IMG/VR virus record: IMGVR_UViG_3300045988_127492
Location: 1-64,000 of that record
From: a virus
Strand: one strand, 5' to 3'
Length of the DNA: 64,000 nt
In this document: positions 18,247 to 33,308 of the stretch, piece after piece
Layout: each line of letters starts with the position of its first letter
Position numbering within the stretch: the stretch's first letter is position 1
Notes under the pieces: generated by a model
Told to the model about the DNA's origin: nothing
What the model saw: the letters and a program-made list of their open reading frames with translations, nothing else
The model's database searches: none
Translations under genes and position numbers: made by a program

Positions 18247-18676
18247 CCAAGGGATAACTATTGGTCTACAGCAATTTATTAACGATTACAAGCCCAAGAT
18301 GGAAAGAGATGCTCAACAGTCAGAAGAAAAATATTATAATGACTACTCTTCTTGGGCTGACGGATATAGACATTATGATTTAAAAAATATTCATACAATT
18401 ACAGGCTTTGCTTATAGTCGAAGTGCAGAGCTTAGAGCACGATTTGATTCAAGTAATATGTCTGGAGGTCATGGTATATGGACCCCTTTAAGTAACTATG
18501 TTGCCGATCCAGAAACAGTTTTCTCCTGGGGATTTGAAACAGGTAATCATGGATTCCATGTAACAAAGACTCCTATCAGAACTTACTGGGAGCAATACTT
18601 CCGTGCAAGAAAAGCCCAAGCAAAAGGGCAAGCTACAAAATTCGTTATCAGCGGATTACATTCTGTTGGTTTATAA
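18212..18676 (+). CDS. Second chaperone-position ORF (T-like), +1 frame relative to 17734
   Basis: Overlaps the upstream ORF by 35 nt and has no Shine-Dalgarno. Its frame is open from 18185. Confidence 0.4.
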   Translation: MGTIPQLRKLIDQGITIGLQQFINDYKPKMERDAQQSEEKYYNDYSSWADGYRHYDLKNIHTITGFAYSRSAELRARFDSSNMSGGHGIWTPLSNYVADPETVFSWGFETGNHGFHVTKTPIRTYWEQYFRARKAQAKGQATKFVISGLHSVGL

Positions 18677-18690: not shown

Positions 18691-20580
18691 ATGGCTGATT
18701 ATACAATAAATGTAGGCGTAGAGGTTAACGATAGTAAATTAGATGCGCTAGAGACACGAATTAATTCTTTAAAAGAAAAAGAAGTTACTCTTAATGTTGG
18801 GTTAGGCAATACTAAACAGTTAACTAAAAATGCTCAGACAGCAGTACAGACAATTAGCAAAGCAACTGCTAAAGCTGCTAAGAATAGTCCTACTATCAAA
18901 GGTGCTAATCTTATAGAGCAGATAGTAAATCCTGAAGATGCTCTGAAATCTATGTCTAAGAGTGTTAAGGACTTAGCTAAATATGGAGAAAAATTAGATT
19001 TAGGAGAAGTCACTCTATCAGTTAATCAGGGTATCATGGGTGAACTGGATGGACTTCAGAATAAATTAAATAGCATCAAAGAAACTGCTAAGAGCATGGG
19101 TTCTATCCAACTTACTGTTGGAGACAATATTAAAACAGAAAATGGAAAAATAGTTGTTGGAGAATCAAAAAGTTCTACTACTGGTTCTGCAAAGTCTGTA
19201 GGATTGAGTCTTAAGCAAGCACAGGCTGAAATCAAGAAAAACATGAAGACCATCGGCACTCTACAAGAACAGTATGTTGGTGGCATCATTGATAAAGCTA
19301 CATATAAACAATCAAAAAAGACTATAGGTCAGAGGAATGCTCAGTTAGCTAAACAGATTCAGACTCAAGGTACTGCTTCAGACTGGGTTACTTCTGCAGC
19401 CGATTTTAGGCAAGCACAAATTAAGAATCAGGCAGCATATAAAGCAATGACATCTAGTGCTAATGAATATGACAAAGTAATTAGTGACTTAGGTGAAAAG
19501 CAGAAAACATTTAACAAAGCAGCTGAAGTATACAATTCTGGTAAAGCACCTTTAAATAAAACCTTAGGGGAAGGTTATCAGAAACGACTTGATTCTTTCA
19601 ATGATACATATAGACAGTTACAAGAGTCTCACGAAAAACTTGCTACTCTTACCGGAGAAGAACGAGATACAGAAAAAGTTCGATTCAATGCACTTAAGTC
19701 TGAAGCTAATCGTCAAGCCAAGCAGCTTAACAATGTAAATCAGTTCATTTCAAAAACACCTAATAAATATAGTAGATCAGAATATGTAGGTATTGATTTA
19801 GATAAAGCTTCAGATACTGTTCGAACCAAAATGGAACAAATGTCAGCGGAACTTGCTAAAGGTAGTAAATATACCACTGAGTTCAATGCAGCTCAGGGAA
19901 AAATGTATACCACTATTGATAGGGGTTCCGGTGTATTTGAGAAATATCAATTAGCATACAAAGAGGGACCAGGTAACGTAGACCAATCTCTTACTAAGGT
20001 TTCTCAAAGTGTAAAACCTCTTTCTAGTTATGTTTCTGAAATGGGACAAAAGTTCCGTAGTCTTAGTCAGTATCTTATCAGTAATTTTGGATTCCAAGCA
20101 CTTCAAACTGGTGTCACTTCTGGCGTTACTTCCATAAAAGAATTAAATTCAGCAATGACTGAATTAAAGAAGACATCTTCTGGTACAAAAAAAGAATACA
20201 GCGATTTTACTGCTCAGGCTAAAGTAGATGCCGAAGCTATCGGTAGTACAACTACTCAGATCACCAATAGTGCCGCTGACTACTCTCGTCTTGGTTATAC
20301 TCTGAGTGATTCTCAGACTTTAGCTAAAAATACTGGTATTCTGAAAAATGTATCAGAATTTGATTCTATAGATGATGCCACTTCTGCAATGATTTCTATG
20401 ATGAAAGCATACGACGTAAAAGTTGATGATTCCATGGATCTCATTGATAAAATGAATCTTGTTGGTAATAACTATGCCATTTCTACAGATGGTATTGCTA
20501 CTGCTCTGCAGAATTCAGGTTCAGCTTTAGTAGCAGCGGGAAACGACTTTGATAAGTCAGTTGCCCTTGTAACTGCAGCT
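18691..20580 (+). CDS. Tape measure protein, exon 1 (630 aa)
   Basis: RBS GTGAGGTGAG. Long helical Lys/Gln/Ala-rich sequence that enters the conserved TMP core (...NYAISTDGIATALQNSGSALVAAGNDFDKSVALVTAA). Confidence 0.8.
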
Positions 20581-21439
20581 ATGACACAAAATGGCTGTGT
20601 ATATAGAAATATATACTACGAATACATCTAACTGCTGGAAACCCCTTAGAGCCTTATACCACAATATAGAGGAAACTACTATATGATGGTTTAAAAACAT
20701 AAGGATTGGGAAATCAGCAACTAAACTCCTAAGTTTTTTAATATGGAGGAAGCTCAACGACTATTCTCGTGAAGAGCTATGAACTTAGAGAATACATATT
20801 CATAGCAATAGAAGTACGGCGCAATCGCAAATGGCGTAGGTGAAAACCCTTTAAATGGAAATGGTGTACCCTTAACAGATAAAGCTGAAGGTGAAGATAT
20901 AGTCTATACAATATAGAAATATATTGAAATGTTAATTAATTATAAGGATAACAATGAAAAAATTTGATAAAGAATATTCAACTCAATATACACCCGAAGG
21001 ATAAATTAAAATATGACAATATTGCAAAATATATAAGAGGTCGTTTATTACCTTGGATTAATCAGCAGAAACAAAAATGTAATTATATTTGTGCTATTGC
21101 AGGAAAAAGAAGTAATATCGTTCTACATCATATTTATAGTTTCAATAAAATTCTTGAAGAGGCAATCAGTATTCTAAATTTTCCCATTTTAGATAACATA
21201 AATGAATATAGCAACAAACAACTTGATTCTTTATATGATAAATTTATAGAAATACAATCAAATTATAATTCATACGTCTGTATAGAAGACAGCATACATA
21301 AAAAATTTCATTCTATATATGGATATGGAAACAATACACCGGAACAGTGGAATGAATTTTTAGAAACTTATAATAAACAAATTGCATAAATAAAATTAAT
21401 TAATATTTGTAAGGTTTTGCGAACCTTATTACTAAATAG
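20581..21439 (+). mobile_element. Group I intron 1 in the tape measure gene, with an HNH endonuclease gene
   Basis: P1: exon CAGCT 20576-20580 pairs with GGCTG 20593-20597 (U.G, extendable by two wobbles). A TAG at 21437-21439 fixes the 3' splice site after G 21439. P-like TAACTGCTGGAAACC 20629-20643, Q-like AAATCAGCAAC 20711-20721, R GCTCAACGACTAT 20752-20764, S GAAGATATAGTCT 20893-20905. The junction TAA|NSVVQDPSQVGAGLRT restores the TMP core. Confidence 0.85.
20964..21389 (+). CDS. HNH-type homing endonuclease (possibly frameshifted start)
   Basis: C..C...HH...N...H..FH pattern (CNYICAIAG...VLHHIYSFN...IHKKFHSIYG). There is no in-frame ATG. An ATG at 20954 with RBS AAGGAT is out of frame by 1 nt across an A6 run. 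Confidence 0.6.
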   Translation: MIKNIQLNIHPKDKLKYDNIAKYIRGRLLPWINQQKQKCNYICAIAGKRSNIVLHHIYSFNKILEEAISILNFPILDNINEYSNKQLDSLYDKFIEIQSNYNSYVCIEDSIHKKFHSIYGYGNNTPEQWNEFLETYNKQIA

Positions 21440-22081
21440 AACAGTGTTGTACAGGACCCGTCTCAGGTAGGTGCTGGTCTTAGAACAATCGCATTACGTC
21501 TTAGAGGTACTTCTGCTGAAGAACTCACTTCTATGGGTGAAGATACAGAAGGTCTCGTAGAGACTACTTCTAAACTTAATTCAAATATCAAGGCTCTTAC
21601 TGCTGTTAATGGTAAAGCAGGCGTTTCTATTCTTGATATGAACGGAAACTATAGAGATACGTATGATATTTTAAAAGATATCTCTCAGGTATGGGGTGAT
21701 ATTGAGAAACAAGATTTAGCAGATGGTCAGAATAGACAAGCTGCTCTGCTTGAAATGATGGCAGGTAAAAACAGAAGTAATATCCTTGCTAGTATTTTAC
21801 AGCATCCTGAATTACTTACAGATGTTTATAATGACTCTGCAAATAATTATCAGAATTCAGCTCAGAATGAGCTTAATACATATCTTGATTCTATTGAAGC
21901 TAAAACACTTAAAATTCAAGAATCTTGGGCTCAGTTATGGCAAACCGATAGAGCAACAAGTGCTTACAAAGGTATATTAGATTTTGGAAATGGAGCAATC
22001 AATGCTTTAGGCAAAATAGGTATAGATAATGTAATAGGTAGTGCAGCCGGTATTGGATTATCTAAACTTGGAAACTGGGGT
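21440..22081 (+). CDS. Tape measure protein, exon 2 (214 aa)
   Basis: The frame is open only from 21440. NSVVQDPSQVGAGLRTIALRLRG continues the TMP core. Ends ...LSKLGNWG. Confidence 0.8.
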
Positions 22082-22515
22082 GGGACAAATTATCAGTTGG
22101 CCCTTTAGAAAACGCCCCATGTAATCTGGTGGTGACACGGAACGATCTTATTATATAAGAAAGGGATTACTAAGCAAACAACCGAAACTGTCTTTATTCG
22201 AAGGAATAAAGAAATGCTTTTAATTTAGCATTCAGGGTGAACCGAAGTATATACTACTCCCCTATTACAGTAATGTGATAGGTATAGTAACAACGTATAT
22301 ATATGGGTGGTCTGCAGCGAAGCTTCTTTATTTTATAGAGAAGAACGTTCATCGACTATAATGGGAACTTGGTCTCCGGATCAAGAAGGAATAGTCAGGA
22401 CTGTTAGGCAGCTTACGCCGAATAAATTAAAGGGTAAATACATCTTACTCTTGTAAGCAATCTTACCTTATGTGCAAAGGTGATGTAGGCACAATTTTTT
22501 CAAAGAGGTGACAAT

Positions 22516-22653
22516 ATGTCCGATAAAAAGGAAACAATGTTTAAAGCTAAAGAAAAACATCAAATAATTGATTCTCCAATTATAAGAGGTATTTCACACA
22601 GTATAAAAGAAATAAAAGAGCAAAAGACTACTCAGTCTCCTGCTCTTTCTTAA
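22516..22653 (+). CDS. Intron-borne micro-ORF (45 aa)
   Basis: RBS AAAGAGGTGA 6 nt before the ATG. It occupies the slot where the sister introns carry the endonuclease gene. Lys-rich, with no recognisable motif. Confidence 0.3.
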   Translation: MSDKKETMFKAKEKHQIIDSPIIRGISHSIKEIKEQKTTQSPALS

Positions 22654-22738
22654 TATAATACGTACAATCTTCATTTTCAAAGTAAGGACATTCCTCTTCT
22701 TTACATTCTTTGTAGAGAGGACATTCTAATATTTCCAT
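22628..22738 (-). CDS. Intron-borne micro-ORF (36 aa, acidic, 4 Cys)
   Basis: RBS GGAGGTAAAG 3 nt before the ATG. Sequence MEILECPLYKECKEEECPYFENEDCTYYIKKEQETE. Its 3' end overlaps ORF 22516..22653 convergently by 26 nt. Confidence 0.3.
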   Translation of the reverse strand: MEILECPLYKECKEEECPYFENEDCTYYIKKEQETE

Positions 22739-22783
22739 AATCTTTACCTCCATAATATAGTTTTGAAAGTAGGTGACAAATTA

Positions 22784-22990
22784 ATGAATAAAAATAACGA
22801 TTCATCTCATTACACAGAAATTCCCATTGTAGAAATTACTGCTGAAGAAGTAATAGCATATATTAATTCTTTCTTTAAACCAAAAGATAACAATCATTCT
22901 ATTCATGAAGTCTCTGTTCCAATTAAATGTCAAAATTGTTCTCTTCATGAAAATCGGATGGGTTGTACCCAATGTAGTCGAGATTGTTAA
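22784..22990 (+). CDS. Intron-borne small protein (68 aa) with Cys-rich C-terminus
   Basis: RBS AGGTGA. C-terminus KCQNCSLHENRMGCTQCSRDC (CxxC...CxxCxxxC). Confidence 0.4.
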   Translation: MNKNNDSSHYTEIPIVEITAEEVIAYINSFFKPKDNNHSIHEVSVPIKCQNCSLHENRMGCTQCSRDC

Positions 22991-23027
22991 CTTTTCTATA
23001 GTATTGTGCAGAGTGTTAGAGTACAGA

Positions 23028-23055
23028 AAGGAGAACTGTGGTAGCAGTTCTCCTT
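23028..23055. terminator. Bidirectional hairpin terminator inside the intron cargo
   Basis: AAGGAGAACTG-TGGTAG-CAGTTCTCCTT, a perfect 11-bp stem with T-rich or A-rich flanks. Sits between convergent ORFs. Confidence 0.55.
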
Positions 23056-23127
23056 CTATTAAAAATTTTAAAAAGAGAAATATATATGACGAAGTAATTA
23101 AATGATAAAGTAGAACATTATTAGCGA

Positions 23128-23313
23128 TTAGTCAACTTTTTTATTCTTGTATTGTCTTTTCATCATCCCGGTGATAAATTTGACTTTCTCATCAGATAAT
23201 TCTGGATGATTGCAAATTTGATCAACAGTATGATTTTTCGAGTTGTAATATAGACTAGCTAATATTACAACAAGTAAAAGACTACTAAGAGATATTATTA
23301 TTCCAGTATTCAT
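23128..23313 (-). CDS. Small single-pass membrane protein (61 aa)
   Basis: Strong RBS GGGGGTGAAAAG. N-terminal TM helix IIISLSSLLLVVILASLYY and Lys-rich tail. The 102-aa version in the ORF track starts at a TTG without an RBS. Confidence 0.5.
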   Translation of the reverse strand: MNTGIIISLSSLLLVVILASLYYNSKNHTVDQICNHPELSDEKVKFITGMMKRQYKNKKVD

Positions 23314-23560
23314 ATTCTTCTTTTCACCCCCTTCCCTTATAAATTTCTTTATTGGGGAAGTGTATTGCCCAGAACGGGCAGATTCTTCGTCCGCATCAGC
23401 AATACAGAATGTATGCCAACACTTCTGCATGATCAAAAGAAATGATCAAGTATATTATCGTGCAGCGAGTTATAATGCAGCACCTATAACCATAATATAC
23501 CTAGTAGTATAATAACAATATTCGACAACTTTGTATATACAGAACATTAGTTTATTATAA

Positions 23561-24064
23561 TCAAAACTTAGCTCCACATTGTCCACACTGATAAGTTTTA
23601 CCCAGATCACCTGTACCAAGTCTTCCGAAGAGTCCTACTTTGAGAATTTTTCTTGTTGCAGTGATCTTGTTAAGGTTTGTGCTGCCGCAGATTGGACACT
23701 TAGGAACACCTACATTGCCATTTTGCTGACTTCTCATCCATTTGAGTGTCTGTTTATTTTGTTCTTCTACACCTTCAGGAGACTCACTGTATTCTCTTTT
23801 ACCTACAGCAATAGAACTTGAACTTCCGTCAAGTTTGCCGTAGAAGTATTTTTTACGGAGCATTTCATCAGTCACTTTAAAACTAGGATAATCACCATCA
23901 TGTGCCTTTTTATACTCTTCTGTTACTTCAATAAGCGCACTAGAATAATCTATACCAGTACCTATAAAAGTTCCAGTTTCGCAGGTAAGACATTTATCGC
24001 CAATTTTATTAATAGAAGACATACTAACTTTACCGCAATTATTGCAGAATAATAATTCATCCAT
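23561..24064 (-). CDS. Double zinc-ribbon protein (167 aa)
   Basis: RBS GGAGAAAAG. N-terminal CNNCG...CLTCE and C-terminal CPICG...CGQCG, separated by a charged linker. Confidence 0.6.
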   Translation of the reverse strand: MDELLFCNNCGKVSMSSINKIGDKCLTCETGTFIGTGIDYSSALIEVTEEYKKAHDGDYPSFKVTDEMLRKKYFYGKLDGSSSSIAVGKREYSESPEGVEEQNKQTLKWMRSQQNGNVGVPKCPICGSTNLNKITATRKILKVGLFGRLGTGDLGKTYQCGQCGAKF

Positions 24065-24103
24065 ACTATTCTTTTCTCCATATAATAACCTAAGATTTAT
24101 TAT

Positions 24104-24132
24104 ATTATATCATACAGTTCGGTTTTCGCCAA
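24104..24132 (-). promoter_or_regulatory. Candidate sigma70-type promoter for the antisense cargo genes
   Basis: Minus strand: extended -10 TGATATAAT (rc of 24104-24112), 17-nt spacer, -35 TTGGCG (rc of 24127-24132). It straddles the 3' splice site, so the -35 lies in TMP exon 3. Confidence 0.4.
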
Positions 24133-27100
24133 GAATGAAGATGGAGGAATTCTACCGCAGACCAGACGTTCTCAAAGAAATAATTTAATTGCTCAAGGCA
24201 ATCAAGAAGTTCAGAGTAATAAAAAAGCATATGAAGATGATTTAAGAGCATTAAATAATTTAAATAGAGAACTTAATAATAATGGTAAAGAAATCGTAGA
24301 TGTAAATAAGCGTCGTGAAATTGCTAATAAAACATTAGAAGAAGCTAGCGACAGAGCTAAGTCCTATGGTTTACAGATTGCTAATAATACAAAAAATCTT
24401 TCTGATTTCAAACGTGAGAATGAAATTAAAGACGAGCCAACTAAGATGGAAAGTTTTACTTCTGGTCTTAAAGGGATCGCTTCATCTGCTCTTTCAGCTG
24501 TAGGTAATACCGTTATTTCAGCTGTAGGTGGACTTGCTGCAGAAAAATTAATTTCTTTAGCATTCCAAGGTATTGATGCCTTGGTTCATTGGGATGACAA
24601 TATTATTGCTAAAGGCCAGGAAGCGAAAGAAACTATTCTTTCGCAGAATGAAGCCTATAAAAATCAGAAATCTCAATTAGGAGAACTCCAGGAACAATAT
24701 ACAAAATTAGCATCAGGTGTCCGTATATCTGGAAATGCTATAAAAAATGTCAGTCTTTCAGATGATGAGTTTCAATCATTCCTTGATACAAGCAATCAAA
24801 TTGCTAATATTGCACCATCTATGGTTGACAATTGGGATTCTGAAGGAAATGCGATTCTTAAATTTGGAACTAGCGCCAAGGAAACTAATCAGCAAATTTC
24901 AGATTATATTCAACTTCAACGAGATGTAACACATTTATCTATTAAAGATAACTTACAAAATGAATATAAAGGCGTAGTCAAAGATGCGGAGAAAGTTGCT
25001 GAAAAAGTTGCATCTTTAGAAAATCAAAAAGACAATGCGGACAATGTCACTTCTAGTTGGGCTGAATTAAAAGATGCGATGGACTCAAATGATTCTATTA
25101 CTACCATTACCACGCATGGCTCTCAAGAAAAAGAGGTCAGAAAATTATTAAGTAAATATGGCATCACACCTATGGTAAGTAGTGACGAAAATGGTGAGTC
25201 TTATACTATAGATACATCAGGCCTTTCTTCGAATGATAGAGAGGAATTAAAAACTTCTCTGGAAGCAAAAGAAGAATATGCTCAAGGTAACGCAAATTTA
25301 ATTGAATCAGAAAAAGCAGTTCAAGAAGCGGTACAAACTTCTAAATGGAAAGATTTGCTTCCAAGTTTACAAGCATATGTTGAATCATCAAATATGTTTG
25401 ATAACATGGATTCAGATGTTGCAGAAAGAGCTAAAAATGGCATTAACACAATGCTATCCAATATTGATATTTCTCAAATGGCAGACCAAATAAAAGATGC
25501 TGGTGATATTGATGATTGGATTGATAAGACTTTAATCGCTCCTATGACATCAGGTTCAAAAGATGTACAAAAAGCTTGGGCTGACCTTTTTTCATTAGAA
25601 GATTCTTATGGTGCCGAAGGCTCAAAGATGACAGTTGGAGAATGGGCTAAGAAAAGAAATGAATATCTTGAGACCATCTCTAAAGGTACTGGTGAAAGCG
25701 TTAGTAGTCTCGCTAAAAAAATGGGATATAAAACTGACGATGGTTGGAGCATCAAAAGTCAGAATGATATTGCAGCTGCCCGTTTATATGGAAAAAACTA
25801 CGATGAAGACCAAAGAAAAGAAATAGGTAATTACTTAAATGGTCTTACTAAAGATAACTATGAAATTGCCATTGATTTACTTATTAATGGTGATGACAAG
25901 TTCTCATCTTTAAAAGAGTTTAGAAGTAAAGTCGACGAAGCAATAGGTGCAGCTCAAGAAGATGCCGAGAAAGCTACTGTATCTTTAGATGCTATGACAA
26001 CTGCTATTACGTCAGCTAAAACTGGTCTCTCGTCTATTAGTACTATTCTCACTGAAACTACTTCTGCAGGTGGAGTTTCATCTGATAACAGAACATCTCT
26101 GATGGCTATGTTCTCCGGTGTAAAAAATGGTGATGAGGAAGTAAATCTCAACAGACTGTTTTCTACTACTGCCGATGGAGTAAAACTCAACGTAGATGCT
26201 CTAAAAGATTATATCCATTACCAACAGGAAGCTACTGATAAGAAGTTCTCTAAAGGTATTGAAAATCAAATCGGTGATTTAAAAGACCTTCGAACAGCAT
26301 GGCAGAATGCTACTGGAGATGAAAAAGATACTGCTCTTGAAAACTTGAAGAATGCGCAGGATGATTATGTTGCTTATATGCAGCAACAGTCTGAATGGCA
26401 AGCAATCAAGAAACAGCAGGATGATCTACTCTCTCAGTATACTCAGTGGCAGACTGCTCAGAGTACAGAGAATGCCGGAGATAGATATAATAATATTTAT
26501 TCTGGTTTAAAAAATGCTAAAGATGCATATGATAAAGGCCTTGTAGGTACAGACGATTTCAAAACATTCGCTGCACTCATCTCTCCTACTGGTTCAGACG
26601 ATGCTAAAAACTTCGCTGAGAACTATGGTAAAGCAGTAAGATATCTCACTGAAGATAAAACAGGAGTTAATAATTTCTTAGCTGACCTTAAAGCTAAAGG
26701 TATGGCTTCATATGATAAGTCCGATGATAGATGGTCATTTAATATAGATGACATGGATAGAGCAGCTCAGTCTCTTGGTATTGGTACTGAGTTTATGAAA
26801 GCAAACTTCGGTCGTCTTCGTGACTATGGTATTGATAATAACTTTATTAGTTCTACAGAAGAAGGTATCAGTAGAGTTAAAGAACTGAGTTTGGCATTAG
26901 CCGAAGAAGAAAAACGCCTTGACAGCTTAGATGATAACTTAGCTACAAACGATACAACAAGAAGTGCTTCTCAGAAGAAAATTGCACAGTACAAAGAGGA
27001 TCTGAAAGAAACAACAGAAAATCTTTCTGAATATTATGGCGAAGATTATACTCAGCAAGCCGCTGCTGATTTCGATGGAGCTGCCATAGCTGTTCAGCAG

Positions 27101-30100
27101 TTAGATAAGTCTATTGACAAAGTAAAAAAAGATAGTACTCTTACTGCTGCTGAGAAAAACTCCATGATTTCTAAAATGATTGCTGAACAGACAGAGCTTG
27201 CTGCAGAGCAATATAGTAGTATTGAAGACCTTCGAAATCATGATACTTCCTCTCTCACTGAAGGGTTAGATATTGATTCAACTGCAACAGTTTCAGCTAT
27301 TGAACAGATTAATCAGGCATATGAGGATCAAAATACAGAGGTAACTGATCTTATTGACACTCTTAGCCAGTATAGTTCTGAGCAGTTAGAAGGCATTAAT
27401 TTTAATGATGGTAAATGGGATACCGAATTAGGCGATGCTGAGAAAGCTGTTGAGTCCTTATGTGATAAGCTCGGATTGACTAAAGATCAGACACAGGAAG
27501 TTATTAATGCACTGAAAGAAGCAGAAAAATTAAAAGATAGCACTGATTCTTCAGATGAATCCAGCGAAACAAAAGAGATTAAAAATGATGCTAAGGAAGC
27601 ACAAGAAGATTTTAATTCTCTTACTGGTAAAACATATAAGATTGATTTAGATACCACTGACTTAGATACCGCTCATAAACAAGTAACAGATTTAAGCTCA
27701 GAAGTAGATAAATATAGAGATCGTGACGGAAAATATCATTCTGAAATTTCTGGTGGCGAAGACCTTCAAACTATGTATACAGGGGCTATTTCACATGAAC
27801 AAGATGTAGAATATAGTTCAACTGCCATGTCTCAAGCCGATTCTAGCTCTAGTATTGTAAAAGCCGCTCAAGACTTTATGCAAGCTAAGAATGAGATGGA
27901 TATTCAAACTCAGCTATACCAGAAAGGTATGGACAATACCCTTGACCAAGCTACTCAGGATGCCAACGCAGCATTTGAGACTTTACAACAAGCTCAGACT
28001 GACTCAGGTATTAAATTAGTAGATACTGATAATATTCAGACTGCTGAAGACCAATTGCTTCAGATGTCAAATGATGACATTCAGGCCAAAGTAGACGTTC
28101 AGGCAGACACTAGCGAAGCTGAATCAGATATTAGCAACCTTCAGAACCTACAAGGCTCTACTATTACAATGACTTGTGATGTAGCCAATGAAGAAAGTTT
28201 TGAACAGGCAAAATCTACGATTGAGTCTATGCCTACAGGTACTACTGCTACTGTTGATATAGAGGTTAATGGCGAAGAGGACGTAGAAAAAGCCACAGAA
28301 CTAATTGAATCCGCACCTACTAATGGTAGCGAATTCGTTGTTAATTGCCATGTAGAAAATGCAGAAGATTTGGAGAAATTAACTGCCGCAACTGATGCCG
28401 CAAATGCCAAAGGAGCAAATATTAAATTAAATGCTAGTGTTGGTGAGGTGGACACTTCTACCGTTTCAGTTGATACAGAAGTTCCTGTCAAAGGCAAACT
28501 TGAAATGGAACCTTACTCTGGAGAAGCTGTTGAAGTAAATGCCAAGGCTAACATTACTGGTGTTGTTGGTGGAGAAGGTGTCGAAGTAAGTCTTAATGCC
28601 AAAGCAAATGTTACAGAAGCACCGACTGTTCCTGATACTACTGTTAAGGCAACCGCACACGTTGATGAAGCACCAGAAGTACCAGATGCAAATGGTAATG
28701 CTCACTATGAAAATGACTTGCCAACTGACGCAGGTAATATTTCTGGATTTGCTCACTATGACACAGATCTTCCAACTTCTGCTCCAGATATTACAGGAAC
28801 CGTTACATATTATGCTCACATTGTAGGTGCTCCATCGGGGGGATCTACTCACGGTGGTAGCGGTGGTAACTTTGCTTCTGGTACTATGACATCAGTTGCC
28901 TATGCTTCTGGTTCTGCATACAATGTTCTTAATATGAAACCACTCTCTTCTGCTTATGACAAAGGAGACGTTGCTTTAAAAGAAGATCAAAAGGCATTAG
29001 TCAATGAACAGAAGAAAAATGGACACTCTGAATCCATAGTACGTGATGGCGTGTGGAGTTTAATTCCTGGAGGGGCTCATTTCGAAAACCTCAAGAAAGG
29101 TGACATTATCTTCTCTGCTCAACAGACAGACGATCTGTTAAAACACGGTGCAACTCCGGGACATGCTAGAACGTATGCACAAGGTACTACTTCCAGAGTA
29201 ACTCTTGCTCCTGCTTTTGCTTCTGGTTCTACTAATACAGAACTCGACAATAAGATCAAAGAAGTAAGTACTCAAGCTAAAGACTGGATTAGTGTAGCTC
29301 TTGATCGTTTGGAGAGAATTGTTGAAAAGTACAAAGACATTGCCGAAAGTAATTATACCAATTACAAATCTTCCGAAAGAAATTATAACAAAGCTCTTAC
29401 TGCTATAAAACAGCAACTGAAAACTCAAAAAAATTCTAGGGCAGCATATGTAAATAAAGCAAATGAAGTTGCTTCCGCAGTAGGCCTTTCTGAAGATTTA
29501 AAAAGAAAAGTCCAGAATGGTACTATCAACATAGAAACCTTGTCTGAAGATAACAAAAAACGTGTTGAAGCATATCAAGAATGGTATGAGAAGATTTTAG
29601 ATTGCGACAAAGCCATACGACAGCTTACTATATCACAAAAAGATTTAGCCAAAGCTAAAGTAGACCGTGTTATTGATGCTTATGACACTGTTATAGGGAA
29701 ACGTGAAAATAAAGCTGACTATTATAAAGCCCAGCAAGAATTAAGAGTTACACAAGGATATAATCAAAAGCCCGGTTCTAAATATGAACAGTATATGAAG
29801 AAAGAGCTTTATTATACAAATGAGCAAAAGCGACTTACCGATCAAGAAATAAATACTTATAAAGGTAAGATGAAAGAATATCTTTCTGAAAATGGGCATA
29901 GAACAGTTGATCCAGAATATCAAAAAATGAAAAAGCAACTTTATGCTTTACAAACTACTTCTGTTAAGTTGGCAAATGAAGCTGCACAGTTAGTTCAGGC
30001 TCTACAGGATAATCGTGAACAAATAAAGCAATGGGCTGTTGACCGTTGGAATCGTGCTGGATCAAAACAGGATGCTGCAATTGATTATAAACTATCTACA

Positions 30101-32410
30101 GATAATCCCGATTTACAGATTGCAGAGAAAGATTATACCGAACGAATTAAAACAAACAACAATCAAATAGGGACTCTCCAAAAGTTACGAGAGGAAAAAG
30201 CAGAATACTATGATGCGTATTTCAGCAGCGGAAATAATGAGGAAGCGCAGAAGTATTTGGATGAGATTGCTAAGATCGACGAACAGATATTAAATCTTGG
30301 TACAAGCACAGAAGAGCTGAAAAATAAAATCATGGAACTGCGTTGGAAACCGTTTGAAGACGCACAAAGTGATCTATCAAATGTAATAAATGAATATCAG
30401 ACTATGCAGAAACTTCTTGGTGACACTGAAAGCTTCTACAATGATGATGGTTCGTTTACTGAAAATGGGTTAACTAATATCCTTCTCATTCAAGAATCTA
30501 TAGATGCTACTAAACAGAAAATTGCTAACTATAGAGAAGCACTAGATAAATTAGACGAGCAGTATAAAAATGGATGTTATAGTCAAGAAGAATACCAGCA
30601 GAAATCTCAAGAGCTGCTAAATGGAATACAACAGGAATCAGTTGCTCTTTCCGATTTACAGCAAAATATGCTTTCAATGTACGAAACTCAGGCTAAGACG
30701 GAAAATGATTTATTGCAAAAAAATATTGATAAACGTCTGGAAGCATTAGATGCGAAAGAAAAGTATTATGATTATGATAAAACTTTAAAAAAGAAATCAA
30801 AAGATATTAATGCTTTAAAAGCACAGATTGCTGCACTCGAAGGTACTTCTAATGCTGCCGGCAAGGCCAGATTGGAAAAATTAAAAGCAGAACTTGCAGA
30901 TGCCGAAGATGATATGCAGGATACTGTACATCAGCACGAAACCGAAATGAAAAAGACTGGTTTAGAAAATCTTCAAACAGATGCAGAGAATGCGCTTGAT
31001 AATACATTAGAGGCTCTAAAAAAGAATACCAGTTTCCAAGAAGCAGTTATTAATAATATGCTGGACAACGTGAAATTAAATTATGACAGTACGTATAGTC
31101 ATTTACACGATGTCATGGATCAGTATGGATTAAAGGTTTCTAATACTTTTGATAAATTAATTTCAAAATCTGCTGATTTTAATACTTCTTTAGCGTCTCA
31201 AACCAAAGCTATGCAAGAAGTTATCAATATGGCTACTAATCTTCCAACTGGCGGTGTCAGCAATGGACAAGGTGGTACAAATGGCACAGCAGATGGAGCA
31301 GTTAAAGACACTGCAAATAATAATCAAACTGCTAGTGGCGCAGGAAAACAAGATGACCTTGACAATATAACTTATACATTCGCATTAAACAAATCAGCAA
31401 TTTATCTTACACCAAATGAATCTTATACACTACAAGTGAAATGGTCTCCTAAAGTTCCTTTGCATTCAGATGTCACTTGGTCTAGCAATAAAACAAATAT
31501 TGCTAAAGTTTCATCATCAGGTAAAGTTACTGCTACTAAAGGAGTGCAATCTTCTAGCAATGGGAAAACAACAGGAACATTAGTTGGTGGAGTTGAAAAA
31601 ACATATAAAGCCATTATTACTGCCAAAACAGACTTTGGTTCAAAAACTTGTGCTGTTTATGTAATGCCTCTTGAACATTATAATGCTATTCATGATTATG
31701 CAAATAAGAGAGGACTGACTGTTTCTGATGACGAGATGCAGACAGCGCTTAAATATGCATACAAAAATGGTGGAAAGGAATCTTACCAGTCTAACGTAGC
31801 TGTAGATGGGTTTGTAAAAACAAAACTTAATAAATGGTTTAATAATCTCCCAGAAAGTTCAGGAAATGATAGTGATATTCCTTCTGATACAAGTGCTCTG
31901 GTTTCATATTTTATTGGCAAAGGTAAGAATGTTAATGGTAGTAATCTACAAGAACTTGCAAATATTTTAGGTATTAAAACTCCAGGAGTAACGGCTTATG
32001 ATACATGGAGTAGTACTTTGAAAAATAAAATTCTAAAAGCATATAAATCATATGGTTTTGCTACAGGTGGAATTATCAATAAACTTATTCCCGCTGATAT
32101 GAATACCCTTTTAGGTAAGGCTATTATTAGCAATGGTGATCAAGGATTTATTGGAGCCAAAGTTGGCGAGACGGTAATGACCGAAGAGTTTACTCGTCTA
32201 TTAAAACCGTCTATTACTGCAATGAATGGTTTTACCAGTATGTTTAGTCCATACACTCCACCTACTACCGCTAATGATTACACCATTAATAATGAAATAA
32301 ATATCAATGTAGCAAATATGAATAGTGATTTAGATATTCGGGATGTTGCAAATAAAGTCTCTACAATTATTAATAAGAATATGACCAGAGACTGGAAAAA
32401 ACTTAGATAA
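24122..32410 (+). CDS. Tape measure protein, exon 3 (2762 aa)
   Basis: The frame is open from 24089 with no RBS at ATG 24446. Very long coiled-coil-like Glu/Lys/Gln/Asp-rich sequence. Degenerate repeats near 28.5-28.8 kb. Ig-like (Big_2-type) segment at about 31360-31670. Confidence 0.85.
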   Translation, partial: VFAKNEDGGILPQTRRSQRNNLIAQGNQEVQSNKKAYEDDLRALNNLNRELNNNGKEIVDVNKRREIANKTLEEASDRAKSYGLQIANNTKNLSDFKRENEIKDEPTKMESFTSGLKGIASSALSAVGNTVISAVGGLAAEKLISLAFQGIDALVHWDDNIIAKGQEAKETILSQNEAYKNQKSQLGELQEQYTKLASGVRISGNAIKNVSLSDDEFQSFLDTSNQIANIAPSMVDNWDSEGNAILKFGTSAKETNQQISDYIQLQRDVTHLSIKDNLQNEYKGVVKDAEKVAEKVASLENQKDNADNVTSSWAELKDAMDSNDSITTITTHGSQEKEVRKLLSKYGITPMVSSDENGESYTIDTSGLSSNDREELKTSLEAKEEYAQGNANLIESEKAVQEAVQTSKWKDLLPSLQAYVESSNMFDNMDSDVAERAKNGINTMLSNIDISQMADQIKDAGDIDDWIDKTLIAPMTSGSKDVQKAWADLFSLEDSYGAEGSKMTVGEWAKKRNEYLETISKGTGESVSSLAKKMGYKTDDGWSIKSQNDIAAARLYGKNYDEDQRKEIGNYLNGLTKDNYEIAIDLLINGDDKFSSLKEFRSKVDEAIGAAQEDAEKATVSLDAMTTAITSAKTGLSSISTILTETTSAGGVSSDNRTSLMAMFSGVKNGDEEVNLNRLFSTTADGVKLNVDALKDYIHYQQEATDKKFSKGIENQIGDLKDLRTAWQNATGDEKDTALENLKNAQDDYVAYMQQQSEWQAIKKQQDDLLSQYTQWQTAQSTENAGDRYNNIYSGLKNAKDAYDKGLVGTDDFKTFAALISPTGSDDAKNFAENYGKAVRYLTEDKTGVNNFLADLKAKGMASYDKSDDRWSFNIDDMDRAAQSLGIGTEFMKANFGRLRDYGIDNNFISSTEEGISRVKELSLALAEEEKRLDSLDDNLATNDTTRSASQKKIAQYKEDLKETTENLSEYYGEDYTQQAAADFDGAAIAVQQLDKSIDKVKKDSTLTAAEKNSMISKMIAEQTELAAEQYSSIEDLRNHDTSSLTEGLDIDSTATVSAIEQINQAYEDQNTEVTDLIDTLSQYSSEQLEGINFNDGKWDTELGDAEKAVESLCDKLGLTKDQTQEVINALKEAEKLKDSTDSSDESSETKEIKNDAKEAQEDFNSLTGKTYKIDLDTTDLDTAHKQVTDLSSEVDKYRDRDGKYHSEISGGEDLQTMYTGAISHEQDVEYSSTAMSQADSSSSIVKAAQDFMQAKNEMDIQTQLYQKGMDNTLDQATQDANAAFETLQQAQTDSGIKLVDTDNIQTAEDQLLQMSNDDIQAKVDVQADTSEAESDISNLQNLQGSTITMTCDVANEESFEQAKSTIESMPTGTTATVDIEVNGEEDVEKATELIESAPTNGSEFVVNCHVENAEDLEKLTAATDAANAKGANIKLNASVGEVDTSTVSVDTEVPVKGKLEMEPYSGEAVEVNAKANITGVVGGEGVEVSLNAKANVTEAPTVPDTTVKATAHVDEAPEVPDANGNAHYENDLPTDAGNISGFAHYDTDLPTSAPDITGTVTYYAHIVGAPSGGSTHGGSGGNFASGTMTSVAYASGSAYNVLNMKPLSSAYDKGDVALKEDQKALVNEQKKNGHSESIVRDGVWSLIPGGAHFENLKKGDIIFSAQQTDDLLKHGATPGHARTYAQGTTSRVTLAPAFASGSTNTELDNKIKEVSTQAKDWISVALDRLERIVEKYKDIAESNYTNYKSSERNYNKALTAIKQQLKTQKNSRAAYVNKANEVASAVGLSEDLKRKVQNGTINIETLSEDNKKRVEAYQEWYEKILDCDKAIRQLTISQKDLAKAKVDRVIDAYDTVIGKRENKADYYKAQQELRVTQGYNQKPGSKYEQYMKKELYYTNEQKRLTDQEINTYKGKMKEYLSENGHRTVDPEYQKMKKQLYALQTTSVKLANEAAQLVQALQDNREQIKQWAVDRWNRAGSKQDAAIDYKLSTDNPDLQIAEKDYTERIKTNNNQIGTLQKLREEKAEYYDAYFSSGNNEEAQKYLDEIAKIDEQILNLGTSTEELKNKIMELRWKPFEDAQSDLSNVINEYQTMQKLLGDTESFYNDDGSFTENGLTNILLIQESIDATKQKIANYREALDKLDEQYKNGCYSQEEYQQKSQELLNGIQQESVALSDLQQNMLSMYETQAKTENDLLQKNIDKRLEALDAKEKYYDYDKTLKKKSKDINALKAQIAALEGTSNAAGKARLEKLKAELADAEDDMQDTVHQHETEMKKTGLENLQTDAENALDNTLEALKKNTSFQEAVINNMLDNVKLNYDSTYSHLHDVMDQYGLKVSNTFDKLISKSADFNTSLASQTKAMQEVINMATNLPTGGVSNGQGGTNGTADGAVKDTANNNQTASGAGKQDDLDNITYTFALNKSAIYLTPNESYTLQVKWSPKVPLHSDVTWSSNKTNIAKVSSSGKVTATKGVQSSSNGKTTGTLVGGVEKTYKAIITAKTDFGSKTCAVYVMPLEHYNAIHDYANKRGLTVSDDEMQTALKYAYKNGGKESYQSNVAVDGFVKTKLNKWFNNLPESSGNDSDIPSDTSALVSYFIGKGKNVNGSNLQELANILGIKTPGVTAYDTWSSTLKNKILKAYKSYGFATGGIINKLIPADMNTLLGKAIISNGDQGFIGAKVGETVMTEEFTRLLKPSITAMNGFTSMFSPYTPPTTANDYTINNEININVANMNSDLDIRDVANKVSTIINKNMTRDWKKLR

Positions 32411-32471: not shown

Positions 32472-33308
32472 ATGTTACAATTTGAATTCGATGGACACAG
32501 TTCTAATGAATACGGAATTATAGTGACTGCTATTACAGACAATGATAATCTTGAAAGCAGGACCTTACAATTAGGAGAAAAAAATAGATATAGAGTAAGA
32601 GAGAATCATTTTGGTACGGTATATGAAGGTAATTATAGTTTTACTATTAGCATTATGAAGAATCCTTGCCTTAGCGTAAATATAGAACCTGAATCAACAA
32701 ACAATTCTTATTACTTATCTTCCGATGATGTTCGCATTATTAATGGCTGGTTGACCTCTCCTCAAACACCAAGACTACTTAAAATAACTGGTGGAGATTA
32801 CTTCTGTGAGAATATAGAATTTTTCGCCACATTTACAGAAGTGGGTACTGATCATGTAATATCTCCATTTGAAATGAATTTTACAGTGACATGCGATAGT
32901 CCTTATGGGTATACTCCTGAGATTACACACACTATCACCTCTTCTTCTACTCTTACAAAAAATTATACAATCAATAATACTTCTGACTGTTATGAAGATT
33001 ATATTTATCCTCTCATCAAAATTTCCCCAAAAAGTCACGGATCCATAACACTTCAAAATACAACTGACAACAATGGCACAATGAAAATTAATGCTTTGAA
33101 AAATGATGAATTTTATATTGATTGCCAACATTTAAAAATATATGACATTACTAATTCACTTATAAGTTTTGAAGATTTAGGTGTAAATGATATAGATAAT
33201 ATATATTGGCTTAGATTAGCTCACGGTGAAAATGTTTTAAATTTCACTGGAGATGCATCATTTGAAATTGTTTACAGAGAGCCAAGAAAGGTAGGTGTAT
33301 TTGCTTGA
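32472..33308 (+). CDS. Distal tail protein (Dit-like)
   Basis: RBS AAAGAGGTGA; 278 aa. N-terminus MLQFEFDGHSSNEYGIIV is typical of siphovirus tail-family proteins. Lies directly after the TMP. Confidence 0.6.
   Translation: MLQFEFDGHSSNEYGIIVTAITDNDNLESRTLQLGEKNRYRVRENHFGTVYEGNYSFTISIMKNPCLSVNIEPESTNNSYYLSSDDVRIINGWLTSPQTPRLLKITGGDYFCENIEFFATFTEVGTDHVISPFEMNFTVTCDSPYGYTPEITHTITSSSTLTKNYTINNTSDCYEDYIYPLIKISPKSHGSITLQNTTDNNGTMKINALKNDEFYIDCQHLKIYDITNSLISFEDLGVNDIDNIYWLRLAHGENVLNFTGDASFEIVYREPRKVGVFA

What the first reader, a model, noticed from the sequence alone, without database searches (positions are those of the whole stretch)
18691..32410. Tape measure protein of about 3606 aa assembled from three exons
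Exons 18691-20580, 21440-22081 and 24122-32410 sum to 10821 nt, or 3606 codons plus a stop. By the established ruler relationship (about 0.15 nm of tail per TMP residue), a fully helical ruler would give a tail of roughly 0.5 micrometre. The alternative is that large parts of the protein serve other roles. Both introns sit in or just after the conserved TMP core. Each is followed closely by an in-frame stop. Unspliced RNA would therefore yield truncated products of 646 aa (intron 1 retained) or 852 aa (intron 2 retained). Splicing efficiency could in principle gate production of the full-length ruler.
Basis: partly seen in the sequence, partly recalled or inferred. Interest (0 to 1): 0.65.

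Follow-up and report, generated by a model that had tools for sequence, protein, structure and literature searches.

The report
Giant tail-ruler gene split by introns
A gut-phage gene for a 3606-residue tail tape measure protein is interrupted by two self-splicing group I introns, and the second carries its own backward-facing set of accessory genes; introns in this gene are known, but the gene-carrying intron looks new.

Summary
Exons 18691-20580, 21440-22081 and 24122-32410 join in frame into 3606 codons plus a stop.

Intron 1 (20581-21439) is a canonical group I intron (Rfam 61.9 bits). A natural allele lacking it encodes exactly the predicted junction.

Intron 2 (22082-24121) is missed by Rfam but is also group I:
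- P1, P10, P2, P6, P8, P9 and a P9.0-like helix covary across diverged relatives.
- Its P6-P7-P3' motif is identical to that of an Rfam-positive intron.

Exon 3 belongs to the same protein. It has no in-frame start for 108 codons, it continues the same TMP profile, and two relatives encode both parts in one uninterrupted ORF of at least 4887 aa.

New here: intron 2 has a compact 5' ribozyme and a 3' splice site 1.6 kb away. In between lies a minus-strand unit whose promoter-like site straddles the 3' splice site, followed by ORFs of 167, 102 and 41 aa and a terminator.

Introns in TMP genes were described in 2008. The 0.5 µm tail and splicing "gating" remain untested.

The parts
18691..20580 (+). 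TMP exon 1 (630 codons), holding the N-terminal region and the first half of the TP901-type core
   Evidence: PF10145 at residues 514-627 (8e-10). TIGR01760 at 3.4e-13. phrog_4211 positions 313-758. The protein is identical to the intron-less allele P0001.
20581..21439 (+). Intron 1, a group I intron of 859 nt. The ribozyme core lies at about 20581-20926, followed by a 141-aa ORF (20964-21389) and a short 3' tail ending in G.
   Evidence: Rfam RF00028 scores 61.9 bits over 20569-20926. The intron is absent from L001, whose exon junction is identical at the protein level. Eleven synonymous differences cluster in the last 55 nt of exon 1, including the last exon base (T here, C in L001).
20964..21389 (+). 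Intron-1 ORF of 141 aa, a possible degenerate HNH-type homing endonuclease
   Evidence: There is no significant Pfam, NCBIfam or PADLOC hit, only a weak phrog_5104 match. The His/Cys motifs (…VLHHIYSFN…, …CIEDSIHKKFH…) were read by eye, so the assignment is tentative.
21440..22081 (+). TMP exon 2 (214 codons), the second half of the core
   Evidence: phrog_4211 positions 761-918, which follow directly on exon 1's end at 758. The frame opens exactly at 21440.
22082..24121 (+). Intron 2, a group I intron of 2040 nt with a remote 3' splice site
   Evidence: Evidence comes from the guide sequence, the terminal G, covarying helices and sharp conservation boundaries. Homologous introns at the same TMP site measure 1711-3846 nt in the window's lineage, 3462 nt in L007 and 5730-5777 nt in L076, L083 and L087.
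22082..22500 (+). Intron-2 ribozyme core. Assigned helices: P1 loop hairpin, P2 22121-22126/22165-22170, P6 22323-22327/22339-22343, P7 22354-22359/22391-22396, P3' 22360-22365, P8 22367-22374/22379-22385, P9 hairpin 22405-22421.
   Evidence: It is 94.5% identical to L002-L005, whereas the adjacent exon-2 DNA barely aligns. RNAalifold finds compensatory changes in 13 of 22 and 16 of 37 predicted pairs. P3, P4 and P5 are only tentatively assigned.
22108..22119 (+). Internal guide sequence. GAAAAC (22108-22113) pairs with the first 6 nt of exon 3 to form P10. GCCCCA (22114-22119) pairs with the last 6 nt of exon 2 to form P1, with U·G at the splice site.
   Evidence: Coordinates are. The guide covaries with both exons in L007 (GAAUAU-GCCCAC with GUGGGU and AUAUUC) and in L054/L076/L083/L087 (GAAUAU-GCCGAC with GUCGGU and AUAUUC). 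The U·G pair is present in 8 of 8 sequences.
22398..22404 (+). 5' strand of a P9.0-like helix (GGACUGU), lying one base (A22397) after P7'
   Evidence: It pairs with 24114-24120 (ACAGUUC). The equivalent pairings are GGACU/AGUUC in L007 and UGAGCU/AGCUCA in the compact relative L117.
24114..24121 (+). 3' strand of the P9.0-like helix (24114-24120) plus the terminal G (24121)
   Evidence: All the homologous introns whose 3' ends were located end in G.
24104..24132 (-). Promoter-like site for the antisense cassette: TTGGCG, 17-nt spacer, TG-n-TATAAT. The -35 lies in exon 3 and the -10 in the intron tail.
   Evidence: It is the best site in the scan of 22000-24300 (10 of 12 matches, with TG). A site at the same position relative to the 3' splice site is found in L007 (16053->16026) and L076 (15037->15009). 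The TATAAT is kept in all lineage-A tail variants.
23561..24064 (-). Cargo ORF 1, 167 aa, a protein with two zinc ribbons and unknown function
   Evidence: It has 221 homologues of conserved length (~150-175 aa), and its cysteine pairs are invariant or nearly so. The AF2 model has pLDDT 85. There is no PDB fold match and no significant Pfam, PADLOC or NCBIfam hit.
23128..23436 (-). Cargo ORF 2, up to 102 aa, with a hydrophobic segment that may be a membrane helix
   Evidence: Listed. ORFs of 100-102 aa occupy the same place in L006, L008, L009 and L023. No family hit.
22628..22753 (-). Cargo ORF 3, 41 aa and Cys-rich (tentative)
   Evidence: Listed. The stretch 22636-22796 is 89-91% identical in L002-L005, where a 36-aa minus-strand gene is called.
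22614..22649 (-). Intrinsic-terminator-like hairpin (16-bp stem plus a T run) ending the antisense unit about 120 nt short of the ribozyme core
   Evidence: The same hairpin produced the spurious weak Rfam match at 22608-22651 on the minus strand.
24122..32410 (+). TMP exon 3 (2762 codons plus stop)
   Evidence: It has no in-frame start for 108 codons. It matches phrog_4211 at positions 1002-1424 and 1989-2430. It is collinear with the continuous ORFs of L082 and L088. The next gene, 32472-33308, is a Dit (phrog_33, DUF6558).

Best explanation
The region is the tail tape measure gene of an SPbeta-like siphophage of gut Lachnospiraceae. The gene is transcribed as one pre-mRNA. Two self-splicing group I introns are removed to give an mRNA for a single 3606-aa TMP (roughly 400 kDa by my estimate).

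Intron 1 is an ordinary, optional, mobile intron with a small ORF in its 3' part.

Intron 2 is a lineage-conserved intron with these features:
- Its catalytic core is packed into the first ~420 nt.
- Its 3' splice site lies 1.6 kb further on.
- The 3' site is recognised by a 12-nt internal guide (P1 plus P10), a P9.0-like helix and the terminal G.

The DNA between the core and the 3' tail is a variable accessory-gene cassette read from the opposite strand. Its sigma-70-type promoter is built across the 3' splice junction, and a terminator stops antisense transcription before it reaches the ribozyme core. The intron therefore lets accessory genes sit inside an essential structural gene without breaking it.

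Shown by sequence comparison: the exon structure, the group I features, the continuity of the protein in relatives, and the cassette anatomy.

Inferred: that splicing happens in vivo, that the promoter and terminator work, and what the cargo does.
For: Exons and frames.

Intron 1:
- Rfam scores 61.9 bits.
- The intron-less allele L001/P0001 has an identical junction, with clustered synonymous changes beside the site.

Intron 2:
- Conservation boundaries fall exactly at ...GGGGT|GGGAC and ...G|GTTTTC. The non-coding core is 94.5% identical where the exon DNA has diverged.
- The guide sequence pairs with both exons and covaries in two further lineages.
- The guide predicts 3' sites kilobases downstream that land in frame at the head of the big ORF: L007 at 16046, L076 at 15030, L083 at 15054, L087 at 15596.
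- RNAalifold finds compensatory changes in 13 of 22 and 16 of 37 pairs, with U·G in 8 of 8 sequences.
- The P9.0-like helix covaries.
- The 21-nt P6'-J6/7-P7-P3' motif is shared with L135, which Rfam scores at 78.8 bits.
- The compact relative L117 (~620 nt) has no cargo.

One protein:
- phrog_4211 is collinear across all three exons.
- L082 (>=4887 aa) and L088 (>=5173 aa) are continuous and collinear with the spliced protein.
- A Dit gene lies directly downstream.

Cassette:
- Promoter and terminator.
- A promoter-like site straddles the splice site in L007 and L076 as well, and the -10 is conserved in lineage A.
- The 167-aa ORF is a conserved protein family.
- Cargo varies among relatives and includes HEPN, GmrSD_N, DUF3825 and TnpB.

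Host: the motif occurs in Lachnospiraceae genomes, and those loci are TMP genes too.
Against: - No RNA or protein data exist for this phage, so splicing is inferred.
- The Rfam group I model does not detect intron 2, even at E<=1.
- I could not assign P3, P4 and P5 with confidence in the window's lineage. The region corresponding to P5 in relatives is partly deleted.
- With G·U allowed, 1.3% of shuffles of the intron's first 150 nt also yield a 12-nt guide. The guide alone is therefore only moderately significant, and the weight rests on covariation.
- Overall duplex energies between the core and the 3' tail are not better than shuffles.
- The uninterrupted relatives are distant (26-44% identity), and the alignment does not cover the junction residues themselves.
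- Promoter-like sites are not enriched overall in this AT-rich stretch (15 found against 10.6 expected).
- The function of the cargo is unknown.
Confidence: 0.85

Rival explanations
1. There are two genes rather than one. The TMP is the 852-aa product (exons 1 and 2 plus 8 read-through codons). 'Exon 3' is a separate ~2650-2760-aa tail protein translated on its own. The 2-kb spacer is an intergenic moron island, and the conserved 5' element is a relic or some other RNA.
For: Gene callers annotate it this way in every relative: an ~853-aa protein plus a 2600-2900-aa protein. L003 has a TTG one codon before the junction, and a database protein starts MVFAKNEDGG. Rfam does not call an intron there.
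Against: The window has no in-frame ATG/GTG/TTG for 108 codons after 24122, and L002 has none for 70. The L003 TTG is not conserved: the window has TCG and L002 has ACG. The protein sequence is conserved right from the junction (VFAKNE...). The guide sequence pairs with both flanks and covaries. One TMP profile runs through all three exons. L082 and L088 encode both parts in a single ORF.
Confidence: 0.07
2. Intron 2 is a decaying intron. The cargo insertion has crippled splicing, so most transcripts give the 852-aa product. The full-length TMP is then made rarely, or by splicing in trans between a 5' transcript and a separately initiated 3' transcript.
For: The 3' splice site lies 1.6 to more than 5 kb from the core. 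The P4/P5 region of the window's lineage looks reduced compared with relatives. Convergent antisense transcription could interfere.
Against: The core is under strong constraint: it is 94-99% identical across lineage A while the exons diverge. The guide, the P9.0-like helix and the terminal G are maintained in every cargo variant. The downstream 2762 codons stay open and conserved although they have no start, which requires productive joining. As far as I recall, a remote 3' junction is compatible with efficient splicing in the T4 sunY (nrdD) intron.
Confidence: 0.06
3. The minus-strand 'cassette' is not expressed. Its ORFs and promoter-like site are chance features of AT-rich intron DNA or remnants of degraded homing endonuclease genes.
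For: Promoter-like matches are not enriched in the region. No cargo ORF in the window has a known function.
Against: The 167-aa ORF has 221 homologues down to 34% identity, with conserved length and invariant or nearly invariant Cys pairs. That pattern indicates purifying selection on a protein. A promoter-like site with the TG extension sits at the same place in three intron lineages whose tails differ in sequence. A 16-bp terminator hairpin lies at the far end. In relatives the cargo includes recognisable domains on the same minus strand, such as HEPN pEK499_p136.
Confidence: 0.15

Closest known systems
Group I introns TMP-IVS1, IVS2 and IVS3 in tape measure genes of Bacillus cereus-group prophages (Tourasse & Kolstø 2008, PMC2504315)
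   Same: These are TP901-like TMP genes of Firmicutes (pro)phages, interrupted by several group I introns at conserved sites. Related introns occupy different sites, and unrelated introns share one site through the same P1/P10 guide. Some lack a homing endonuclease gene. The same pattern appears here. An intron 1 relative sits at a second site in L008 and L023-type loci. Different introns occupy the ...NVG|IFK... site or a site 2 nt away.
   Different: The TMPs there are described as over 1200 aa, against 3606 aa here. No antisense cargo or kilobase-distant 3' splice site is reported in the section I read. Intron 2 here is not detected by the Rfam model.
T4 sunY (nrdD) group I intron with a remote 3' splice junction (recalled from memory: Xu & Shub 1989; Michel et al. 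1992; not checked in the library)
   Same: The catalytic core is compact and lies at the 5' end. A long insertion follows the core, and the 3' splice site is brought back by short pairings (P9.0, P10) and the terminal G.
   Different: As I recall, the T4 insertion is a sense-strand homing endonuclease ORF. Here it is a variable multi-gene cassette on the opposite strand with its own promoter and terminator, and it holds no recognisable endonuclease.
Phage 'morons': accessory genes with their own promoter and terminator inserted between late genes (general knowledge)
   Same: It is an autonomous transcription unit of variable content set among structural genes. The cargo in relatives includes defence-type domains: HEPN and GmrSD_N.
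   Different: Morons sit between genes. This one sits inside a coding sequence and is tolerated only because the surrounding RNA splices itself out. Its -35 element is made of exon codons.
SPbeta YomI and other very long tape measure proteins (general knowledge; I recall YomI at 2285 aa and the Thermus phage P74-26 TMP at about 5000 aa)
   Same: The structural module is SPbeta-like: YomU, YomW, YonB and YonD Pfam families occur in syntenic relatives. It has a TP901-type core and a Dit gene downstream.
   Different: As I recall, YomI is encoded without interruption and carries lytic domains. No significant lytic domain was found here, only a weak transglycosylase PHROG hit at E=0.003.

Membership tests
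Group I intron (intron 1, 20581-21439) | Match to the curated covariance model (Rfam RF00028) above the gathering score | tested here: met
   61.9 bits against a gathering score of 50, full-length model match over 20569-20926.
Group I intron (intron 1, 20581-21439) | 5' exon ends in U, intron ends in G, and precise excision restores the host reading frame | tested here: met
   Position 20580 is T and 21439 is G. The intron-less allele L001 encodes the identical junction VALVTAA|NSVVQDP. The TMP profile runs from position 758 to 761 across the junction.
Group I intron (intron 2, 22082-24121) | Match to the curated covariance model (Rfam RF00028) | tested here: not met
   No hit at E<=1 over 21900-24400. 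However, L135, which shares an identical 21-nt P6'-P7-P3' motif, scores 78.8 bits.
Group I intron (intron 2, 22082-24121) | Internal guide sequence forming P1 with the 5' exon (U·G at the splice site) and P10 with the 3' exon | tested here: met
   The guide is GAAAAC-GCCCCA at 22108-22119. It covaries with the exons in L007 and in L054/L076/L083/L087. U·G is present in 8 of 8 sequences, and two P1 pairs show double changes.
Group I intron (intron 2, 22082-24121) | Terminal G (omega G) at the 3' end | tested here: met
   The window and all homologous introns whose 3' ends were located end in G.
Group I intron (intron 2, 22082-24121) | Conserved core helices P3-P9, including the P7 G-binding helix, supported by covariation | tested here: inconclusive
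   P6, P8, P9 and P2/P2.1 covary. P7 (GACUAU/AUAGUC) is invariant. P3 (22261-22266 with 22360-22365) is plausible. P4 and P5 could not be assigned with confidence in the window's lineage.
Group I intron (both introns) | Guanosine-dependent self-splicing | not testable with these tools
   This needs in vitro transcription and splicing, or cDNA.
TP901-family phage tail tape measure protein | TMP core domain (PF10145 / TIGR01760) | tested here: met
   PF10145 scores 39.3 bits on exon 1 (cut-off 33.2) and continues into exon 2. TIGR01760 scores 49.3 bits (cut-off 28.8).
TP901-family phage tail tape measure protein | Position in the tail module, after the tail tube and assembly chaperones and immediately before Dit | tested here: met
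   The Dit gene (phrog_33, DUF6558) lies at 32472-33308. A YomU tube protein lies upstream in syntenic relatives. The two small ORFs just upstream (17734-18246 and 18212-18676) gave no family hit, so the chaperone assignment is inferred from position.
TP901-family phage tail tape measure protein | Length sets tail length (ruler function) | not testable with these tools
   This needs EM of virions and deletion mutants.
Intron-encoded homing endonuclease (intron-1 ORF 20964-21389) | Recognisable HNH, GIY-YIG, LAGLIDADG or similar nuclease domain | tested here: not met
   No Pfam, NCBIfam or PADLOC hit. An HNH-like His/Cys pattern was seen only by eye. The flanking synonymous-change tract is consistent with past homing.
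Moron-type autonomous accessory cassette (22614-24132, minus strand) | Own promoter and terminator, with gene content that varies among otherwise syntenic relatives | tested here: met
   Consensus promoter and terminator. The promoter position is conserved. The content varies. Actual expression was not tested.

The most novel reading that the evidence does not exclude
A family of group I introns at one conserved site of Lachnospiraceae-phage tape measure genes has become a safe harbour for accessory genes. The ribozyme is compacted at the 5' end. Kilobases of exchangeable, antisense-transcribed cargo sit before the 3' splice site, including defence-type genes such as HEPN and GmrSD-like proteins and even a TnpB. 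The cargo's promoter is built across the splice junction, with the -35 in exon codons and the -10 beside the P9.0 strand. On this reading the intron persists because of what it carries and not through homing. Antisense transcription in the lysogen and sense splicing late in infection would be temporally separated uses of the same DNA.
Probability: 0.45. Interest if true: 0.72.

Novelty: new variant of a known kind. Interest (0 to 1): 0.55.

Why it matters
Annotation. Gene callers split this TMP into an ~853-aa protein and a 2600-2900-aa 'hypothetical' protein in all the related contigs I examined. As a result, tail-length predictions, TMP-based phage typing and protein-family statistics for this abundant group of human-gut Lachnospiraceae phages are wrong. 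The Rfam group I model misses intron 2 and the interruptions in eight distant relatives scanned, so such splits may be under-reported.

Biology. If the cassette reading is right, self-splicing introns can shelter multi-gene, independently transcribed accessory islands inside essential genes. That would be a new niche for defence or counter-defence genes, and a reason other than homing for an intron to persist. It would also offer a natural design for inserting payloads into phage structural genes without disrupting them.

Tail length. The ~0.5 µm prediction can be tested directly once a host is found. The candidate hosts are Lachnospiraceae such as Lientehia hominis NSJ-141, which carries a related TMP intron.

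Tried and rejected
- Rfam scan of 21900-24400 at E<=1. It gave only a spurious 'Plastid-psbA-2' match, which is the antisense terminator hairpin.
- Rfam gathering scan of eight distant relatives. It found nothing, so their interruptions remain unclassified, apart from the guides I read by eye.
- Megablast of the whole region against GenBank phages. No match.
- tblastn of the junction-2 region against GenBank phages. Only 26-31% hits to the exon-2 part (Brevibacillus Sundance, Enterococcus VRE9, Enterocloster CB473P), which did not settle continuity.
- Whole-exon-3 Pfam and PHROG scans. Both were empty. Only 600-aa chunks revealed the TMP profile.
- PDB sequence search with exon 3. Nothing.
- Cargo function. 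Pfam, PHROGs, PADLOC and NCBIfam gave only sub-threshold noise. The AF2 model of the 167-aa protein is confident (pLDDT 85), but Foldseek against the PDB gave no match at E<=0.001.
- RNAduplex of the core tail against the intron's 3' tail. Total energies were no better than shuffles. Only the short P9.0-like helix is consistent. A second candidate helix (AAUCUUA/UAAGAUU), seen by eye, is contradicted in L002, so I dropped it.
- A group II intron. I considered this because the intron begins GUGGGA if read 1 nt earlier. I rejected it because Rfam finds no domain V, and the boundaries, guide and terminal G are of group I type.
- An intein, or ribosomal bypass or frameshift. I rejected both because of the 2-kb spacer with stops in all frames and genes on the minus strand.
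- Hand assignment of P3-P5 in the window's lineage. Not resolved.
Full report
**1. What is in the sequence**

The plus strand between 18691 and 32410 holds three long open stretches:
- 18691-20631
- a frame open from exactly 21440 to 22108
- a frame open from 24089 to 32410, whose first ATG/GTG/TTG is only at 24446

Joining 18691-20580, 21440-22081 and 24122-32410 gives 1890 + 642 + 8289 = 10821 nt. The translation is 3606 aa with one terminal stop. Translation that reads into the introns stops after 16 and 8 codons, giving 646 and 852 aa.

**2. Intron 1 (20581-21439)**

Rfam's group I model matches 20569-20926 at 61.9 bits, above the gathering score of 50. The 5' exon ends in U and the intron ends in G.

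The TMP profile phrog_4211 leaves exon 1 at position 758 and re-enters exon 2 at 761.

A natural intron-less allele exists. P0001 (852 aa, on contig L001) is 100% identical in protein and reads ...VALVTAA|NSVVQDP... without interruption. Of the 37 nucleotide differences between the two alleles, 11 are synonymous changes packed into the last 55 nt of exon 1. These include the last exon base, which is T here and C in L001. That pattern is what intron homing with co-conversion would leave.

The 141-aa intron ORF (20964-21389) has no significant family match. An HNH-like pattern is visible only by eye.

**3. Intron 2 (22082-24121)**

Rfam finds nothing here, even at E<=1, so I built the case from comparison.

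(a) Conservation boundaries. In relatives whose TMP is about 85% identical in protein, exon-2 DNA barely aligns. From ...AACTGGGGT|GGGAC... onward, however, about 420 non-coding bases are 94.5% identical. Similarity resumes at ...G|GTTTTCGCCAAGAATGAA.

(b) Guide sequence. At 22108-22119 the intron reads GAAAAC-GCCCCA. GCCCCA pairs with the last six exon-2 bases (UGGGGU, with U·G at the splice site). GAAAAC pairs with the first six exon-3 bases (GUUUUC). This is a textbook P1/P10 internal guide. Within 22500-26000, the only site that combines a G with a six-base P10 pairing is 24122. With G·U allowed, 1.3% of shuffles also give such a guide, so the guide on its own is only moderate evidence.

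(c) Covariation of the guide. In diverged introns at the same TMP site, the guide changes together with the exons:
- L007: GUGGGU / GAAUAU-GCCCAC / AUAUUC
- L054, L076, L083, L087: GUCGGU / GAAUAU-GCCGAC / AUAUUC

The guide-predicted 3' sites lie 3.4-5.8 kb downstream and fall in frame at the head of the large ORF. Every one of these introns ends in G.

(d) Homology to recognised group I introns. The motif AACGUUCAUCGACUAUAAUGG (P6'-J6/7-P7-P3') is shared with a metagenomic intron that Rfam scores at 78.8 bits (L135). It is also shared with introns in Lachnospiraceae genomes. Those introns are homologous over the whole ribozyme and also sit in TMP genes.

(e) Helix covariation. RNAalifold was run on eight sequences from three lineages. 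For P1 and the P2 region, 13 of 22 predicted pairs show compensatory double changes. For P6, P7, P8, P9 and P9.1, 16 of 37 do. U·G is present in 8 of 8 sequences and P7 is invariant.

(f) A P9.0-like helix. The bases one position after P7' (GGACUGU, 22398-22404) pair with the bases just before the terminal G (ACAGUUC, 24114-24120). The equivalents are GGACU/AGUUC in L007 and UGAGCU/AGCUCA in the compact relative L117. This helix, together with P10, can bring back a 3' splice site that lies 1.6 kb from the core.

I could not assign P3-P5 securely in the window's lineage. The Rfam criterion is formally not met.

**4. Is exon 3 part of the same protein?**

Four lines of evidence say yes.
- There is no in-frame start for 108 codons in the window and for 70 in L002. 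The TTG that a gene caller uses in L003 is not conserved.
- The protein sequence is conserved from the first exon-3 codon onward.
- Scanned in 600-aa pieces, exon 3 matches the same TMP profile further along: phrog_4211 positions 1002-1424 and 1989-2430, after 313-758 in exon 1 and 761-918 in exon 2.
- Among 80 related loci from IMG/VR, nearly all show the same split. Two, L082 and L088, have uninterrupted, open-ended ORFs of at least 4887 and at least 5173 aa. L082 aligns collinearly with exon 1-2 residues 454-825 and with four successive parts of exon 3 (E down to 2.5e-30).

The next gene, 32472-33308, is a distal tail protein. Two caveats apply: these continuous relatives are distant, and the alignment skips the junction residues themselves.

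**5. What else is inside intron 2**

The 1.5 kb between the core and the 3' tail reads as a minus-strand transcription unit:
- The best promoter-like site in the region is TTGGCG-17-TGaTATAAT at 24132->24104. It straddles the 3' splice site, with its -35 in exon 3.
- It is followed by ORFs of 167 aa (24064-23561), 102 aa (23436-23128) and 41 aa (22753-22628).
- A 16-bp terminator hairpin at 22649->22614 ends the unit about 120 nt short of the ribozyme core.

A TG-extended promoter-like site sits at the same position relative to the splice site in L007 and L076. The TATAAT is kept in every lineage-A tail variant.

The 167-aa protein has 221 homologues with conserved length and invariant or nearly invariant Cys pairs, so it is a real gene. 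Its function is unknown.

Across relatives the intron ranges from about 620 nt with no cargo (L117) to 5.7 kb. The cargo differs between them: HEPN pEK499_p136, GmrSD_N plus DUF3825, and an IS605 TnpB. Whether the unit is expressed has not been tested.

**6. Comparison with what is known**

Group I introns at several sites in TMP genes of Bacillus cereus-group prophages were described in 2008 (PMC2504315). That work already covers unrelated introns sharing one site through the same guide, and introns without endonuclease genes.

A compact 5' core with a remote 3' junction recalls the T4 sunY intron, which I cite from memory and did not check.

My literature searches found no phage group I intron carrying an antisense, independently terminated multi-gene cassette whose promoter overlaps the splice junction. 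The search covers open-access text only, so absence is weak evidence.

**7.

The ~0.54 µm tail is the product 3606 x 0.15 nm and cannot be tested here. Parts of exon 3 are unlikely to be extended helix. These include Gly/Ser-rich and repeat stretches seen in the translation, and a weak Big_2 hit.

No result here supports regulatory 'gating' by splicing. Early in-frame stops are usual in phage group I introns, as far as I know.

**8. Verdict**

- Observation: confirmed.
- Interpretation: the three-exon TMP is supported, while the tail length and the gating idea are unproven.
- Added value: intron 2 is a cargo-bearing variant that is missed by Rfam and by gene callers across a widespread group of gut Lachnospiraceae phages.
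- Confidence in the three-exon TMP: 0.85.
- Probability of the functional antisense cassette (the 'safe harbour' reading): about 0.45.

Noticed in passing
window 8607-8979 (with ORFs 8156-8626, 9051-9833, 9885-10475): A third group I intron (Rfam 78.4 bits) splits a yonB-like gene into 156-aa and 196-aa parts. It carries a 260-aa ORF which, by synteny with L004, is a GIY-YIG homing endonuclease. Relatives carry GIY-YIG or LAGLIDADG ORFs at the same place.
   Followed up: partly
L082:2481-17143 and L088:1381-16901: These are uninterrupted tape measure ORFs of at least 4887 and at least 5173 aa, and both run off the end of the fetched locus. If they are real, they are among the longest TMPs known. 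I recall the Thermus phage P74-26 TMP as about 5000 aa. By the ruler rule they imply tails of roughly 0.75 µm or more.
   Followed up: partly
L008:12237-12542; L023, L024, L025, L031, L034 around 10283-12300: Some relatives lack intron 1 at the window's site. Instead they carry a related group I core, with a 382-aa ORF, at a different site inside the exon-2 region. Their first ORF therefore ends at about 746-763 aa.
   Followed up: partly
L045, L050, L053, L057 about 9180-9400: An unrelated intron occupies a site 2 nt downstream of the intron-2 site (...GUCGGCAU|), with its own guide (UUUGAAC-GUACCGAC). Different introns thus converge on the same ...NVG-IFK... motif. I read this by eye only.
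   Followed up: no
L007:13834-14928: An IS605-family TnpB (OrfB_IS605 plus the Cas12f-like TNB domain) sits on the plus strand inside the intron-2 homologue.
   Followed up: partly
L116 (minus strand), motif at 3315-3335 and 6092-6112: One Lachnospiraceae TMP-like gene holds two near-identical copies of the compact intron 2.8 kb apart. Each copy follows the same repeated exon motif ...AKRLTALQNVG. One copy has an extra insertion between P8 and P7'.
   Followed up: no
window 20526-20580 against L001 6108-6162: Eleven synonymous differences cluster in the 55 nt upstream of the intron-1 site between the intron-plus and intron-less alleles, whose proteins are otherwise identical. This looks like a co-conversion or target-immunity footprint.
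   Followed up: yes
L003:13913-14506 (-); L076:10585-11559 (+) and 11678-12460 (+): Cargo genes inside intron-2 homologues include HEPN pEK499_p136 (2e-17), a GmrSD_N (DUF262) protein (3e-17) and DUF3825 (6e-67). These are defence-type domains.
   Followed up: partly
window 17262-17744: By position, this 160-aa ORF just upstream of the presumed tail chaperones corresponds to the DUF1064 (PF06356) ORF that sits in the same slot in relatives (L001-L006, L008). In L007 that slot holds a weak RusA hit instead. A nuclease-like gene is an odd thing to find inside a tail module.
   Followed up: no
window 49000-64000: GC skew and AT skew switch sign near 49-50 kb. This indicates a change in the direction of transcription, and probably the end of the late structural module.
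   Followed up: no
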